A stretch of 64,000 bases of DNA from Styela clava (lineage: Eukaryota), in the NCBI RefSeq assembly GCF_964204865.1, contig NC_135259.1:5208001-5272000 (forward strand), given 5' to 3'. Each line of letters begins with the position of its first letter. The stretch's first letter is position 1. The position numbers were made by a program. Of this stretch, positions 12,001 through 18,000 are shown piece after piece.

Positions 12001-15000
12001 CAAATGCAAAGTGATGAAGTAATGAGACGCGAAAAATTAGCAGGAATACCTAATTCAAAAATGCCTTTTTCCTACGCTATTTCTGACCATCCAAAATCTA
12101 GAAATTTTTGTAAAAAGATCGGCATGATTGAATTGGCTCAAGTGAGATCTTACCAACCAGCTGATTTATGCAAAGAGCTTTCGTATATGTGGATTTTTGT
12201 TCTTCCATCTTTGCCTTTAAGTTATATCAATGCTGCCAAAAAAATTTTTGTTCTGCCAGCAAACCTGTGAATGTCTCGATAAATATTACAATGTCCTAAT
12301 GGATTATTCAAAGCGTTGGGACAAAATAAGTGTCTGTGTGTGTGGTATGAAAATATATGGAGCTTTTAGCAATTTGAGTCTTTTGCGCTAGACAATTCAA
12401 AACCGAATCTTGGTGAACTTCACAAAATCAAGTATAGTGAAAGGAAACGACGACAGTCGCTTGAAATAGCTCTGATTTGAGAATCAATGCCATAATCGCA
12501 GGATTTCATCTTAAATGTGTGTCTTTCATCTCTATATACACGACAGTTAATTAGAAAATATTCCATTGTCTCCTAAAAAAAAAAAAAAATGAGTAAAAAA
12601 TGGCTTGTTGCTTAGTATGATACATCTTGGTAACTGCCGAACATTCCCATCAGTCAAATACAACAGAGAAAAATGTTTTTAATACCTGGTCACACAAAAT
12701 CAAGCCTTAAACGAAATCAATTTTTTGAGTTGACAAAAGCGCTGAATATATAATATTTTAAATTATACAACAATTAGAAATATGCGAGAGAATTTCGATT
12801 GACATATAGAATACTATTTGAATTATATTTAACTTATTTTCTTAATTTGACACGCCACGGCATGTTGTGATGCATAGCAGACAAACGGCGACTCGAACCA
12901 GGGCACATTAGCAGTGGTTTTTCATATTGAATTCAATCACGCCTGACTATTCCATATGTTAATAAAAGTCATTCAAATCATTTGATTTGAAACTTCATAC
13001 ATTACTTACGCAAACCACGAAGTTTTTTCGTCTTATACTACACAAGCTAACACAGGGGATCAAATAGTGTTGTCGGTGTTGGAATAATTTTAAAAATTCA
13101 TTGGCATTTTCTGTTTTTGTTCAAACCTTGCGTAACGGAAATGCCTCATTTATCAATATCCAAACCTAAACCCAATAAAACGTTTTTTCCAGTCGCGTTC
13201 TGAAGTCGGTCTCTAAACAATTGTACGCGTTGCTACATTTTTTGCACAAGAATATACTGTATCGAGTACTGATATTTACTTGTTTTTACTACTGATCAGT
13301 TACTACTAACGGAGATATTAGGAATGACATCGTCAAAAAATACGAAGAGGTAAAGTAAGTAATTATTTGTGTAGCATTGTCGAAAATATTTATTCAGCAT
13401 TTTTGTAAGCATGGGATAAACCAATCTTGTCTTAATTATACATCGAAAAGTGTGACATACGCATTGTTATATCCCAAACGCGGCCTCATCATCTGTGGCC
13501 TGTTTCGCATTTGGCATCTGCTGGAGGTTAAATCAAAAACGCATTTGGTGTTGTCTAATCATAAAAATGTTTTGACATAGAAAAATGAAAATCGAATGCG
13601 ATATCTATTAGCTCAGGTTGGCTTATGCATGATAACTAAATATTAATGTTATGACCTGACATTATAAATCCCGCCTAAACAGTATTACAAAAAAAGATGT
13701 CTCTATGTCAGAAAATTTAGTAATTACCCTTCTCACATTTGGTAATAAATCAACCTGCAGTGATTTGTAAACTGTAAACATGAGTTTGAAAAAAAGCTGA
13801 CCAATTCAAACAGATTTTTAACTGGATATAGGAGAGTAGAGGGTTGATGGTAATTGAACTGAGAATTAGCATTCACATACTTTTGATGTCTTCTTCAACC
13901 TTCTTCGTCGATATCAGCAAAACGACTTTCTCCATCAAAACTTCATCTTCCTCCATTGAGCATGCTGTCGCTCCAACTATTTTGATTTTGTCAGCTTTCC
14001 TCGTTTTAATGAGTGGGCTCAGGTTGGCTTATGCATGATAACTAAATATTAATGTTATGACCTGACATTATAAATCCCGCCTAAACAGTATTACAAAAAA
14101 AGATGTCTCTATGTCAGAAAATTTAGTAATTACCCTCCTCACATTTGGTAATAAATCAACCTGCAGTGATTTGTAAACTGTAAACATGAGTTTGAAAAAA
14201 AGCTGACCAATTCAAACAGATTTTTAACTGGATATAGGAGAGTAGAGGGTTGATGGTAATTGAACTGAGAATTAGCATTCACATACTTTTGATGTCTTCT
14301 TCAACCTTCTTCGTCGATATCAGCAAAACGACTTTCTCCATCAAAACTTCATCTTCCTCCATTGAGCATGCTGTCGCTCCAACTATTTTGATTTTGTCAG
14401 CTTTCCTCGTTTTAATGAGTGCTAGAAATCCGCGGCCTTATTTAAATATTGCTGGATATAGATATTCATAACACACAGCAAGAAATTTTTGTCTAATATT
14501 TGGATCAGGATGTGTTTAAATGTATAAAGGGTCATTATGAAAAGCTCGTTAGCATGTTTGAAAACTCGCCAACCAGTCCCGTTCATTTCCTTCAAATAAT
14601 TCAATTCACATGCTGAAAAAAATAAAATAGCAATGCTTAAATATATACCGTGAAGGCCAAGTCGAAATATTTTACCCACAATAGCTCCAAAATCATATCC
14701 TGGACAAAGCTAGGATTGCGGAATAGCCACTGTAATTTACCAGTACCGGTACCGGTACCGGTACCACCCGGACTGTACCAGCTTTGGTCTGAGACCGATA
14801 ATGATTCATGCTTCTAGTACCACCCGGACTGTACCAGCTTTGGTCTGAGACCGATAATGATTCATGCTTCTAGTCTCGATGTGAATCAAATGATTGAATA
14901 ATCCACAAGTGTAATATCAAGTCTTTCACCGTACCGTATCATACCGTACTCCTTTTCCAAAAACTTTCAGACATTTGCTGAGCACGAAATCCGCTGCTTG

Positions 15001-18000
15001 CGTTTATGGAATCGCTGCACGGTGCGCAATTTTTAATTTTCATGGCGTCATCACACAAAACTTCGTAGGGAAAAACGGATCTCATAGAGCCCAAAGGAAT
15101 TTCAAAAATTAATTAAAGAAATAGCATTCTAGCGACAACAACAATCTTCAGCCACTAACAATTTCAAAGCTATTTGTACAGTACTTGAAAAGAAAAGCAA
15201 TGTTTTCACAAACAAGAAGAAAAGAAGAAGAAGAATACCAAATATACCAACAGCAACAACAAAAATTCGACATAACAATCTATAGGTCCGATTTGTATCC
15301 AAGTGTCTAACAAACATGTCGCAAAAATATACTTTTATATTAAAGTGAAGAAATGAAAAAGCATGTTTTCTCGGATAACGAATCCATTTTGCATTGTCAC
15401 CTCGGGATATAATATTGTGAAAATTGTGATTTCAATTGCATTATGAGTTATATGCAACGGCAATCGTTCAGAAATCGTTAACATATCGTAAATCTTCTCG
15501 TCATGTTTACTTTACTCGTAGTTTTCGTATTCGTGCAATTCCAAATAAAAATTAAATCGCAATGCCCAATTACGCTTGAATCAGCGAGTTATTTTAGAGG
15601 TTTTGGTCTTCGTTTATAATGCTTAGGCGTCTATTGCACGTATAAAATTATTATTCTTTTTGGTTGTGCCTTCGTATTCCTATTATTCGTGTTCGAACAA
15701 TCAAAATTATTTTATTTAATTCAGAATGTGGATTGAATTATCAGAACGCAAGGAAAGTGATTGGAGAAAATGTTTTAAAATATGTCAGAGAGCATTTCAA
15801 AATGATCCTTTCTACACTTACACACACCCGGATCCAGAAATTCGGCGAGAATTTTTGAAAGTCTATTTTGACTATTTATATCCAGCTATTTTTCAAGATG
15901 GCAAAGGTATATTAGTTGTAATAAAAGCTGAAGACGAGGAAGGAATCAAAATAATTGGTGGAATGTCAGTTACAATGTATCAGGATGAGGAATTAGAAAA
16001 TGATCACACAGCTTTACTAGCAGTTGATAGAAACGGTTGGATGAAACATTCAAGGTAATACTTACTACTTATTTGATAAAACTTTACATTTAATGTGTTC
16101 AATGTTTTCAGTGCTCCAGTGCTCAATTTCGGCCAAAGGTGTTTGATATAGTACTTGTTCATCCCTCACATCACTGTCTGGAATACCATAGAACAATTGT
16201 ATTATTACCTATGATCCATTTGTTATATTTATAGACGTGATGACTGGGAATATAAAACCTATTACTATAAATTACAAGAATTGGCAGACAAATTAGGTAC
16301 AAACCTTATGCCTGGCGTGTTTCAAATAGTGGATGATGGCTACAGAGGAAAAGGAATTGGATCAAAATTCGTCATGCAAGCGGTGCAGATGATGAGTGAC
16401 GAAGTCGTAAAAAGAAAGCGTCTCGCTGGAATAGCAAACCCAAAACCTCCCCTGGCTCATTGCATCTGTGATCATGAAAGGTCTAGGAATTTCACGAAGA
16501 AAAGTGGATTCATAGAAGTGGCTCAATTACGTACAAATAACGTTGGAGTTCTAGGCAAAGATACATCCCATATATGGATATTTTTACTTCCACCTGAGGA
16601 TCCGAGTTGGATTTATGAAGCCAGAAAAATGTTTGCTCATTCATCGAATCTGTAAACATTTCTTTTTGTGCTCCATACTTATCAGGCACATATAAGCATT
16701 GCGGAACTTATGTGAACTAACTCGAATTAAATAGTTTCTCAGCTGCCAATGTTTGACGGAATAATAGTCTGGAGGAAATTACTAACAGTCATGAGTTATA
16801 CCCTTTATAAAAACCATGATTTTTTTGCAGAATAGATTACTGCCTTTTATTAAATTCTTGTGCTAATACTAAAAAACATTATCAGATTATTTTTTATGTC
16901 TTATGTCTTGATTGTCTTTGCAATATATATGATTTTGTGCAATATATTATATTCCATTTTCTTCGGATTTTTTGTATATAAATGAAATGACATATATTAT
17001 ATAAATATATATAACTATTTCTCGGAATAATGATTTTCTTTTATAGATACCAGTTACATTCCACTAAAAATATTATGTTAGAAGTATTTTGGAATACTAC
17101 TTCTCTTTATGATATTAGTCCTGTAACTGATTGCGTTTAGCAAACCGCATTAGTAAAGTATCGCGTTAATCGGTAGTTTTTACAAACCGCTTTTCTAGTA
17201 GAAAGTTATCTATGAATCATGCTGTTTTAGTATTTTCTTGACGCGTTGCGATAAAAAAGGTTACTCTGGTGTCAGTCGTATCGAGAGCAAGATTGTTTGT
17301 AAAATACATACGATAAATTCAATCGTATTTGATAGAAACATTCTTGATAAAAGATATATAACAGTTTACTTCTGTGAGAAAACTCATTTAAAAAATATCT
17401 ATGACTTTAGTTTTATTATACACCTGTGCAAAACCAATGGATAACAATAAAATTTGATGCATGAAGAACATCTTTCGAATGGCAACTGATTGATACAAAC
17501 AAAAAACTATATAAAAATGAAGACGAGAACAGAAGCATTTTATGTATTACATAACATATCCGGGGACTACTCATTGCCAATTGAATTGAATAAATTTCAC
17601 GCAAAATAAACGACGCACTGATTTTCTTAAACACAAACACAAAGAAGCCCAAGTTATTTTGCCATTAGTTAGGCTTAGTCAAACATAAATGCATGATTGC
17701 ACTTTTGTTTTTCGTTGCTTGCCCACCTACCAGATTTGTATGTTGAAATTTACAAAGTATATGAATATATATCTGAGAAACAACTGATGAGCAAACATGC
17801 ATACGATGGACACGAAACGAAACTTCTCAACAATGTGCTTTAGCTTGCATAAAACGAGATTTCAAGAACGTTTCAATAAAGAAGGCTACGGAATAGCACA
17901 AAATTGTTCTTATACTCGAATGACTTTATTATTCACTTACAAATATCTACTCTGATCAAGTTTGATGGAACGTTTAGTACTGTTTGTTCTTGACTACCCA

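What the first reader, a model, noticed from the sequence alone, without database searches (positions are those of the whole stretch)
13324..16655. Exon/promoter capture: chimeric A-exon1::C gene
Seen: C1 and C2 have no native exon 1, yet their frames and splice sites are intact. An inverted copy of gene A's upstream region and 26-nt exon 1 (13324-13349; 22465-22490) sits 2.0-2.4 kb upstream on the same strand with a phase-2 donor. Splicing would give MTSSKNTKR-MWIELSERKES… of normal length (258 aa). In unit 3, where C has its own exon 1, the equivalent donor is weaker (GTATAA) and most of the upstream copy is missing. Inference: a C-type enzyme rewired to A-type regulation.
Basis: partly seen in the sequence, partly recalled or inferred. 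Interest (0 to 1): 0.7.

Follow-up and report, generated by a model that had tools for sequence, protein, structure and literature searches.

The report
Paralog first exon upstream of truncated gene
In a sea-squirt gene cluster, two copies of an acetyltransferase gene have lost their own start region and sit downstream of a spare start region copied from a sister gene, so they may now be switched on like that sister, but no transcript evidence could be checked.

Summary
The window is Styela clava (tunicate), not human. It holds a tandem cluster of a lineage-restricted GNAT-fold acetyltransferase family: gene A (- strand) and three about 9-kb repeat units, each carrying B, a dead A-type copy and C.

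Units 1 and 2 lack a 1670-bp stretch that in unit 3 carries C's own promoter and 26-nt exon 1. A + strand stub, 82-85% identical to A's upstream region, exon 1 and intron start, lies 2375 and 1982 nt upstream of C1 and C2. It has an intact ATG and a phase-2 AG|GTAAAG donor. In unit 3 the same stub has a mutated donor and keeps only about 185 nt of upstream sequence.

The interpretation (stub promoter and exon 1 spliced to C exon 2) is the most economical reading but is not shown. No transcript data or C1/C2 gene models could be reached.

Rivals remain open. Translation could start at the conserved exon-2 Met, as in the database B-type protein. A second donor 5 nt downstream would turn exon 1 into a short upstream ORF. 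SL trans-splicing is possible. C1 and C2 could be young silent copies.

This would be a new member of a known kind (deletion-driven promoter and first-exon capture), of modest interest.

The parts
12410..13323 (+). Unit 1: A-type upstream block (putative captured promoter) of the 5' stub
   Evidence: 12621-13472 matches A 3553-2700 at 81-82% (870 columns). 12410-12618 matches A 5889-5686 at 82%. Both inverted relative to A.
13324..13349 (+). Unit 1: copy of A-type exon 1 (ATG, 26 nt, phase 2), donor AG|GTAAAG. A second donor GTAAGT starts at 13355.
   Evidence: 20 of 26 bases identical to A exon 1 (2866-2841), read.
13350..15724 (+). Proposed intron 1 of the chimera (2375 nt). Contains a 405-bp tandem duplication (13611-14015 / 14017-14421) and the antisense dead A-type exon 2.
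14306..14611 (-). psiA1: A-type exon 2 with in-frame stops (pseudogene), antisense to the proposed intron
   Evidence: tblastn, 79% to A exon 2 with 4 stops.
15725..16054 (+). C1 exon 2 (acceptor ttaattcag|A, then ATG TGG ...; 330 nt)
16235..16655 (+). C1 exon 3 with stop (421 nt). Carries the GNAT motif YRGKGIGSKF and ends -SNL.
22465..22490 (+). Unit 2: identical copy of the A-type exon 1 with the same donor
24473..24802 (+). C2 exon 2 (identical to C1)
24983..25403 (+). C2 exon 3 with stop (identical to C1)
30674..30883 (+). Unit 3: remnant of the stub. ~185 nt of upstream sequence plus the exon-1 copy 30858-30883, followed by GTATAA.
33405..35074 (.). Unit-3-only segment missing from units 1 and 2. 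Holds the psiA3 intron-1 start, dead psiA3 exon 1 (33647-33622, - strand, ATG changed to ATA), the C3 promoter region, C3 exon 1 and ~1 kb of C3 intron 1.
34045..34070 (+). C3 native exon 1 (MDTNEENT + 2 nt, donor GTAAGT)
35444..36377 (+). C3 exon 2 (35444-35773), intron 2, exon 3 (35957-36377)
   Evidence: Exons 2 and 3 match P0001; the only mismatches sit at the junction codons.
867..2866 (-). Gene A (source type of the stub): exon 1 2866-2841, exon 2 1968-1636, exon 3 1281-867
10365..10390 (+). B1 relic of a family exon 1 (ATGTCATCGTCAAG...) with no GT donor. B1 exon 2 starts at 11385.
   Evidence: The B-type protein P0003 starts at the exon-2 Met.

Best explanation
What the sequence shows (steps 1-5).
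1. Each repeat unit originally carried a dead A-type gene (- strand) head to head with C (+ strand). Their first exons lay about 400 bp apart, as is still seen in unit 3.
2. Before the units multiplied, a younger partial copy of gene A's 5' end was inserted between B and the dead A-type gene, pointing towards C. It comprises at least 1 kb of upstream sequence, exon 1 and ~120 nt of intron 1.
3. In the ancestor of units 1 and 2 a 1670-bp deletion removed the shared promoter region, C's own exon 1 and about 1 kb of its intron 1.
4. The left edge of this deletion lies at the inner edge of the inverted repeat formed by the stub and the dead gene's 5' end.
5. The deleted unit then duplicated to give C1 and C2.

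What is inferred.
- C1 and C2 are now transcribed from the A-type stub promoter.
- The 26-nt exon-1 copy is spliced over a 2.0-2.4 kb intron to the old C exon-2 acceptor.
- The product is a 258-residue protein whose first 9 residues, a disordered tail, come from the A type.

The gain would be regulatory, not enzymatic. The enzyme is a GNAT-fold N-acetyltransferase of the insect arylalkylamine-NAT structural type.
For: Structure and homology of the stub.

Loss of the native exon 1.

Annotated paralogs use exactly this exon-1 design. P0002 corresponds to A and begins MTSSKDTES-MW. P0001 is the C3 type and begins MDTNKENTK-MW. Both are 26 coding nt in phase 2.

The exon-1 copy is the only AG|GTAA phase-2 ATG mini-exon in the 3.4 kb upstream of C1 exon 2 (1 of 5 candidates).

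Donor polarity, with A as outgroup. All 5 changes in 13282-13443 lie on the unit-3 lineage and 0 on the unit-1/2 lineage. Three of them are within the 11 bases of the two donors. Fisher one-sided p = 0.047, on a region chosen post hoc.

The stub is younger than the dead A-type gene. Stub intron-1a versus A is 88.6% (109/123). psiA intron 1 versus A is 76-77%.

C1 and C2 have open frames and intact splice sites. In the same array B3, which has diverged from B1/B2 since the unit-3 split, has lost its ATG, gained a frameshift and broken its exon 3.

The two longest difference-free tracts between units 1 and 2 are the C gene (15521-16677, 1156 nt) and the exon-1 copy with its flanks (13088-13579, 491 nt). 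The overall difference is 1.55% (143 of 9236).

The exon-1-encoded residues are disordered in the model: pLDDT is below 50 for residues 1-4 and the first strand starts at residue 9. Swapping them should therefore be harmless.
Against: No transcript, junction read or gene model for C1/C2 could be seen.

Phase compatibility and the GT are inherited, not selected. The stub's donor arose from a 15-nt loss relative to A and psiA3 that leaves GTAA in place.

A competing donor AAA|GTAAGT lies 5 nt downstream. It would include the in-frame TAA and make exon 1 a 9-codon upstream ORF.

dN/dS between C1 and C3 is 0.52 (17 non-synonymous, 8 synonymous). This is not distinguishable from neutrality (p = 0.11).

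The overall relative rate in the stub is even: 10 versus 14 changes, p = 0.54.

The identical tracts include introns. They extend at low divergence to 14424 within the proposed intron. They therefore fit gene conversion or assembly collapse as well as constraint.

B genes show that a coding exon 1 is dispensable.
Confidence: 0.45

Rival explanations
1. C1 and C2 are expressed, but the protein starts at the conserved Met that opens exon 2 (249 residues). The 5' end is non-coding. Three routes are possible:
- the stub exon spliced from the second donor (GT at 13355), so that MTSSKNTKR-stop is an upstream ORF;
- another, unrecognised first exon or start site;
- a spliced leader added in trans at the exon-2 acceptor, as in other tunicates.
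For: The ATG directly follows the acceptor in A, B and C (cag|A ATG, or tag|C ATG).

The B-type database protein P0003 (250 aa) starts exactly at this Met. The B exon-1 relic has no GT donor.

B1/B2 look constrained: 4 non-synonymous and 5 synonymous changes, dN/dS 0.19, p = 0.019.

In alignment A2, 2 of 16 N-terminally complete family members start at this column.

The second donor, GTAAGT, is a perfect hexamer.

SL trans-splicing affects about 50% (PMC1488885, abstract) to at least 58% (PMC7986045, passage) of expressed Ciona genes.
Against: SL trans-splicing is not documented for Styela in the searchable library (0 papers).

13 of 16 N-terminally complete relatives carry a leader ahead of this column. 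The aligned residue is not conserved as Met outside the local paralogs. The ancestral start is therefore in exon 1.

The annotated A and C3-type proteins use the exon-1 ATG.

The first two routes still involve an upstream promoter, possibly the same stub. They are variants of the capture rather than opposites.
Confidence: 0.3
2. C1 and C2 are young, silent, 5'-truncated copies. The deletion removed promoter and exon 1. The frames are still open only because too little time has passed and because C1 and C2 are kept identical by conversion. The stub upstream is an unrelated leftover.
For: dN/dS of 0.52 is not significantly below 1.

Of the 15 amino-acid differences between C1 and C3, 6 are C1-derived, 3 are C3-derived and 6 are unresolved.

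The array is littered with dead family pieces: psiA1-3, B3, and fragments at 7230-7301 and 30461-30598.

C1 = C2 over 1156 nt, introns included, points to conversion or duplication rather than purifying selection.

The stub exists in unit 3 too, where it has no evident job.
Against: B3 collected three disabling lesions over the same unit-3 divergence. C1/C2 collected none in 750 coding nt, and all four splice sites are intact.

The stub's ATG and ancestral donors are kept in units 1 and 2 and lost in unit 3.

The 90% cluster of P0001 holds 8 member sequences. That is more than C3 alone would be expected to give, but the members could not be listed.
Confidence: 0.2
3. Units 1 and 2 are not two loci but two haplotypes of one locus laid in tandem by the assembler. 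There would then be one truncated C gene, not two.
For: Units 1 and 2 differ by 1.55%, with patchy identical tracts. This is in the range one might expect between haplotypes of a polymorphic marine invertebrate (general knowledge, not tested).
Against: There is no N gap in the window. The unit junctions are continuous sequence. Unit 1 carries private structural changes: a 405-bp tandem duplication, and 56- and 61-nt indels. Even if true, the stub-upstream-of-truncated-C structure stands.
Confidence: 0.05

Closest known systems
Deletion-driven promoter and first-exon capture: mouse lethal yellow (Raly-agouti) and quail yellow (RALY-ASIP)
   Same: A deletion removes the native 5' region and puts the coding exons under an upstream gene's promoter, with a fusion transcript. 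Source: PMC6466734, passages read. The mouse case is as cited there.
   Different: There the donor is an unrelated gene, the deletion is 141 kb and the outcome is a dominant mutant allele. Here the donor is a 5' stub copied from a paralog with the same exon design. The deletion is 1.67 kb and the product would be in frame. The arrangement appears in two assembled repeat units, and the fusion transcript is not shown.
Chimeric genes made by partial duplication in tandem arrays (Drosophila examples such as jingwei and Sdic; recalled, not read here)
   Same: A new gene is assembled from the 5' part of one parent and the body of another, with a possible change of regulation.
   Different: The two parents here are paralogs of one family. 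Only 9 disordered residues and the promoter would change. Expression is untested.
Variable-first-exon clusters (UGT1A, clustered protocadherins; recalled)
   Same: Several alternative promoter and first-exon modules lie upstream of shared downstream exons and splice to one acceptor. In unit 3 both a stub exon 1 and the native exon 1 lie upstream of C3 exon 2.
   Different: There is no evidence of regulated choice. In units 1 and 2 only one module is left.
SL trans-spliced tunicate genes (Ciona)
   Same: An acceptor immediately ahead of the start codon with no obligatory cis first exon. Sources: PMC1488885 abstract; PMC7986045 passages.
   Different: The SL is not known for Styela from the library searched. 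The annotated paralogs use a cis exon 1.
Insect-type arylalkylamine / dopamine N-acetyltransferases (GNAT fold)
   Same: Best structural matches of the family model are 5gi6 (E 5.9e-7, TM 0.52/0.64) and 3te4. Puromycin NAT 7k09 is also close. 228 PDB chains score E <= 0.001, and the top 50 listed are essentially all acetyltransferases. The motif R-G-K-G-I-G is present.
   Different: Sequence identity is 14-19%. Pfam is at threshold only (21.0 bits against a cut-off of 20.7 for P0001, none for P0002). The protein is about 40-50 residues longer. It has a C-terminal -SNL/-ANL. The substrate is unknown.

Membership tests
Chimeric gene by promoter / first-exon capture | The 5' module derives from a different parent gene than the body | tested here: met
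   The stub is 83-89% identical to gene A's upstream region and intron start. The body is C type: C exon 2 is 55% and exon 3 is 40% identical to A in protein.
Chimeric gene by promoter / first-exon capture | The native 5' exon and promoter of the recipient are lost | tested here: met
   33405-35074 of unit 3 is absent from units 1 and 2. There is no other C-type exon 1 in the window.
Chimeric gene by promoter / first-exon capture | Same strand, compatible phase, usable donor and acceptor | tested here: met
   Phase-2 AG|GTAAAG donor and cag|A acceptor, with introns of 2375 and 1982 nt. Caveat: a competing GTAAGT donor lies 5 nt downstream.
Chimeric gene by promoter / first-exon capture | A chimeric transcript exists | not testable with these tools
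   No read or transcript collection for this animal is on hand. Cluster members of P0001 could not be listed. No shorter database fragments were found.
Chimeric gene by promoter / first-exon capture | Expression follows the donor gene's pattern | not testable with these tools
   No expression data.
GNAT (GCN5-related N-acetyltransferase) superfamily | GNAT fold | tested here: met
   AlphaFold2 model of P0001 with 19-sequence alignment: pLDDT 88.9, pTM 0.85. Foldseek against PDB: 228 chains at E <= 0.001, the listed ones acetyltransferases.
GNAT (GCN5-related N-acetyltransferase) superfamily | Acetyl-CoA pyrophosphate-binding motif A (Q/R-x-x-G-x-G/A; motif recalled) | tested here: met
   R-G-K-G-I-G in C and B, R-G-G-G-I-G in A. 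It aligns with the Pfam Acetyltransf_1 motif region 67-93.
GNAT (GCN5-related N-acetyltransferase) superfamily | Pfam gathering score | tested here: inconclusive
   P0001 scores 21.0 bits against a cut-off of 20.7. P0002 has no hit. P0003 is below the cut-off. Single exons are below the cut-off. The PDB profile search's best hit is Naa30, E 0.0049.
SL trans-spliced gene | Spliced leader found on the mRNA at the exon-2 acceptor | not testable with these tools
   No reads. There is no Styela SL in the searched literature.
PTS1 peroxisomal proteins | C-terminal tripeptide of the S/A-K/R/N-L type (motif recalled) | tested here: inconclusive
   10 of 19 aligned family members end in x-x-L: SNL, ANL, ANL, SKL, AKL, SML, NKL, SSL, CTL, AKL. 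No targeting predictor was run.

The most novel reading that the evidence does not exclude
A naturally occurring, in-frame 'lethal-yellow-like' rescue inside a paralog array.
- A deletion nucleated at the edge of an inverted repeat destroyed the bidirectional promoter and the first exon of an acetyltransferase gene.
- The gene survived because an orphan promoter and exon-1 stub, copied earlier from sister gene A, already pointed at it.
- The rewired gene was then duplicated and is kept identical by conversion.
- This would give S. clava two extra copies of a (possibly peroxisomal) AANAT-like enzyme under A-type control.
Probability: 0.35. Interest if true: 0.45.

Novelty: new member of a known kind. 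Interest (0 to 1): 0.3.

Why it matters
If the junction is used, this locus shows how a gene that loses its promoter and start exon can be rescued by a pre-existing paralog stub. All intermediate states are preserved side by side in one 30-kb array. Unit 3 is the 'before' state and units 1 and 2 are the 'after' state. Regulatory rewiring of duplicates would then be testable with paralog-specific reads.

If the junction is not used, the locus is an ordinary decaying tandem cluster. It would serve as a caution that phase-compatible exons among paralogs are expected by descent.

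Tried and rejected
(1) Listing the 8 members of the 90% cluster of P0001, to see how C1/C2 are annotated.

(2) Looking for shorter database fragments of C1 exon 2 (59-191 aa). None scored at E <= 0.001 among 3 candidates.

(3) Literature. Styela + spliced leader + trans-splicing: 0 papers. The two LOC numbers: 0 papers. The Styela clava genome paper (PMC7540406, 'find' only) has 0 occurrences of acetyltransferase, GNAT or trans-splic. Its supplements were not opened (closed) and may hold gene lists. Searches gave nothing relevant.

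(4) Model 'the stub and psiA1 are the two halves of one A-type gene split by an inversion'. This was suggested by the shared TTATATCCC at both edges. I rejected it because neutral intron divergence from A jumps from 88.6% (stub side) to 77% (psiA side). psiA3 is continuous across the point at 76-77%.

(5) Model 'recombination between the inverted repeat arms inverted the spacer'. Rejected: the spacer is colinear between unit 3 and units 1 and 2.

(6) Operon B1->C1. Unlikely: a 3.4-kb gap, whereas Ciona operons mostly lack intercistronic sequence (PMC1488885, abstract).

(7) dN/dS and relative-rate tests were inconclusive.

(8) Pfam on single exons was below threshold.

(9) tRNA scan: 0 genes.

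(10) No quantitative splice-site model (MaxEnt type) was available. Donor strengths are judged by consensus match only.

(11) The joined exon-1 + exon-2 + exon-3 model of C1/C2 was deliberately not assembled, translated, searched or folded. Searches were done exon by exon. Folds used the database protein P0001.

Full report
Origin and scope. The window has no N and about 34% G+C. Its exons match predicted proteins of the ascidian Styela clava: P0001, LOC120334097 isoform X1, 258 aa, and P0002, LOC120338306 isoform X1, 257 aa. Nothing in it was taken for human. The joined exon-1 + exon-2 + exon-3 sequence was never assembled, translated, searched or folded. Lengths below are arithmetic on coordinates. 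Full-length work used database proteins as returned.

Map of the locus. Self-comparison and exon-wise tblastn show the following.
- Gene A lies on the - strand: exon 1 2866-2841, exon 2 1968-1636, exon 3 1281-867.
- Three tandem repeat units follow: about 9906-19060, 19066-28414 and 27820-38786.
- Units 1 and 2 differ at 143 of 9236 aligned positions (1.55%).
- Unit 3 is 93-96% identical to them where alignable.
- Each unit carries, on the + strand, a B gene and a C gene.
- Between B and C lie a + strand stub of A-type 5' sequence and a - strand dead A-type exon 2 with stops (psiA: 14611-14306, 23346-23041, 32661-32373).
- B3 is dead. Its exon-2 ATG is ACG, it has a +1 frameshift, and its exon 3 is broken.

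The observation. It is confirmed in full.
- The exon-1 copies at 13324-13349 and 22465-22490 are identical. Each starts with ATG and ends AG|GTAAAG in phase 2.
- The surrounding block 12621-13472 matches A 3553-2700 in inverted orientation at 81-82% over 870 columns. 12410-12618 matches A 5889-5686.
- P0002 equals gene A and begins MTSSKDTES-MWIEL, so A's 26-nt exon 1 is what the public annotation uses.
- P0001 equals C3 in exons 2 and 3 and begins MDTNKENTK-MWMEL. The window encodes MDTNEENT at 34045-34070 with donor GTAAGT, matching 8 of 9 residues.
- That exon lies in 33405-35074, which units 1 and 2 lack. 33789-35074 has no counterpart anywhere else in the window.
- C1, C2 and C3 have the same acceptor (ttaattcag|A ATG), the same exon-2 donor and the same exon-3 acceptor, and open frames.
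- The proposed introns are 2375 and 1982 nt, against 1373 nt in C3 and 872 nt in A.
- 26+330+421 nt gives 258 codons plus stop.
- In unit 3 the stub keeps about 185 nt upstream (30674-30857). Its exon copy (30858-30883) is followed by GTATAA.

History inferred from divergence.
- The dead A-type gene of unit 3 is continuous from exon 2 through intron 1 to a dead exon 1 (33647-33622, ATG changed to ATA) and about 140 nt of upstream sequence.
- It is uniformly 74-77% identical to A in non-coding parts.
- It stands head to head with C3 exon 1, about 400 bp away.
- The stub is closer to A: 83% upstream and 88.6% in intron 1a. It is therefore a younger partial copy of the A lineage, not the missing half of psiA.
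- The stub is present in all three units, so it predates their multiplication.
- Units 1 and 2 then share the 1670-bp loss.
- The left edge of that loss (TTATAT|) is the very position at which the stub stops aligning with A. This is the inner edge of the inverted repeat formed by the stub and the psiA 5' end.
- I take this as a deletion nucleated at the repeat edge. That is inference and remains unexplained in detail.
- Unit 1 later gained a 405-bp tandem duplication inside the proposed intron.
- Unit 3 gained a + strand piece of A intron 1 and exon 2 that is 96% identical to A (30241-30598), just ahead of its stub remnant.

Evidence on whether the stub is used.
In favour:
- It is the only family-type exon 1 upstream of C1/C2 on the right strand.
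- Among ATG-started, stop-free, phase-2 stretches that end before GTAA in the 3.4 kb upstream, there are 5 in unit 1 and 4 in unit 2. It is the only one with AG before the GT. None ends before GTRAG.
- With A as outgroup, units 1 and 2 keep the ancestral state of ATG, exon and both donors. Unit 3 has 5 derived changes in 13282-13443 against 0 in units 1 and 2, and 3 of them fall in the 11 donor bases. Fisher one-sided p = 0.047. The probability of 3 or more changes in 11 bases is 0.024. Both are post hoc.
- C1 and C2 carry no disabling lesion, while B3 collected three.
- The two longest identical tracts between units 1 and 2 are the C gene (1156 nt) and the exon-1 copy with its flanks (491 nt).
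Against, or neutral:
- Phase and GT are inherited by descent. The stub donor is what a 15-nt loss between two GTAA repeats leaves behind.
- A perfect GTAAGT starts at 13355. It would carry the in-frame TAA into the exon and make a 9-codon upstream ORF that ends just ahead of the exon-2 ATG.
- dN/dS for C1 against C3 is 0.52, from 17 non-synonymous and 8 synonymous changes, p = 0.11.
- The overall relative rate in the stub is 10 against 14, p = 0.54.
- The identical tracts include intron 2, and low divergence runs on to 14424. Conversion or assembly collapse explains them as well as constraint does.
- The B genes have an exon-1 relic (10365-10390) with no GT after it, and they look constrained (dN/dS 0.19, p = 0.019). 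The B-type protein P0003 (250 aa) starts at the exon-2 Met.

The protein family.
- A full-library HMMER search with P0001 found 26 proteins at E <= 0.001. Of these, 11 were at <= 1e-10 and 2 at <= 1e-30.
- I aligned 17 of the 26 with P0001 and P0002. I left out 9: P0013, P0018, P0019, P0021, P0023 and P0025-P0028. They are short or match only part of the query.
- Of the 16 N-terminally complete sequences, 13 carry a leader ahead of the column of the exon-2 Met, 2 start at it (P0003, P0014) and 1 starts after it. The aligned residue is not conserved as Met outside the local paralogs.
- The AlphaFold2 model of P0001 has pLDDT 88.9 and pTM 0.85. Residues 1-4 are below 50 and the first strand runs from 9 to 14, so the exon-1 peptide is a loose tail.
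- Foldseek against PDB gives 228 chains at E <= 0.001. The best are Drosophila dopamine N-acetyltransferase (5gi6, E 5.9e-7, TM 0.52/0.64) and puromycin N-acetyltransferase.
- Pfam is at threshold only. The PDB profile search gives Naa30 at E 0.0049.
- 'C-type enzyme' is therefore fair as a GNAT-fold acetyltransferase of unknown substrate.

Context from papers.
- SL trans-splicing reaches about 50% of expressed genes in Ciona (PMC1488885, abstract), or at least 58% (PMC7986045, passage).
- For Styela I found nothing.
- The closest described mechanism is the yellow allele of quail and lethal yellow of mouse. There a deletion puts ASIP under the RALY promoter with a fusion transcript (PMC6466734, passages).
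- Drosophila chimeric genes and variable-first-exon clusters are recalled, not read.

Verdict.
- The most likely account is a deletion-driven capture of a pre-existing A-type promoter and exon-1 stub by C1/C2 (0.45).
- Next come expression with a start at the exon-2 Met by another 5' route (0.3), silent young copies (0.2) and an assembly duplicate of one such unit (0.05).
- This is a new member of a known kind, and interest is modest until junction reads are seen.
- What stayed unchecked: any transcript data, the cluster members of P0001, supplements of the genome paper, and the closed contig collections.

Noticed in passing
16644-16655, 25392-25403, 36366-36377, 867-878 (-), 12259-12270: All intact family members end in -SNL or -ANL. 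Distant relatives end in -SKL, -AKL, -NKL, -SSL or -SML (10 of 19 aligned end x-x-L). This looks like a peroxisomal PTS1 signal (motif recalled). A peroxisomal AANAT-like acetyltransferase family would be unusual.
   Followed up: partly
33404/33405 and 13472/13473 (also 22613, 31006): The left edge of the 1670-bp loss in units 1 and 2 coincides with the inner edge of the inverted repeat formed by the A-type stub and the psiA 5' end (shared TTATAT[C/G]CC). The mechanism is unexplained.
   Followed up: partly
15521-16677 vs 24269-25426: C1 and C2 are identical over 1156 nt including intron 2, while the units differ by 1.55% overall (Poisson p about 2e-8). This indicates gene conversion or an assembly collapse.
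   Followed up: partly
29338-30174: B3 is a pseudogene. Its exon-2 ATG is ACG, it has a +1 frameshift near 29368, and its exon 3 is split over two frames with a loss.
   Followed up: yes
30241-30672: A + strand copy of the end of A intron 1 and the first 46 codons of A exon 2, 96% identical to A. It is followed by a second, more diverged exon-2 fragment (30600-30672). This points to recent exchange between gene A and unit 3.
   Followed up: partly
10365-10390 and 19517-19542: B genes keep a relic of the family exon 1 (19 of 21 bases like the A-type copy around the ATG, read) but have no GT donor. The B-type database protein P0003 starts at the exon-2 Met.
   Followed up: partly
7199-7310 (+): Isolated tail of an A-type exon 3 (24 residues, 83% to A), upstream of gene A.
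   Followed up: no
13611-14421; 14761-14816: A 405-bp tandem duplication (99.8% identical copies) and a 56-nt duplication next to a (CCGGTA)n run. Both are in unit 1 only.
   Followed up: no
57743-58258 (-), 59589-60218 (-): Exons of a cytochrome P450 gene (Pfam PF00067, E 2.5e-40 and 2e-24).
   Followed up: partly
18236-18640 (-), 37962-38366 (-): A 134-codon open frame repeated in units 1 and 3. It has hydrophobic stretches and an NPILY motif, reminiscent of the end of a seven-helix receptor. There is no Pfam hit at E <= 0.001.
   Followed up: partly
34045-34070: The window's C3 exon 1 encodes MDTNEENT, whereas the database protein P0001 has MDTNKENT (8 of 9 residues). This could be an allelic or assembly difference, or P0001 could come from another near-identical copy.
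   Followed up: no
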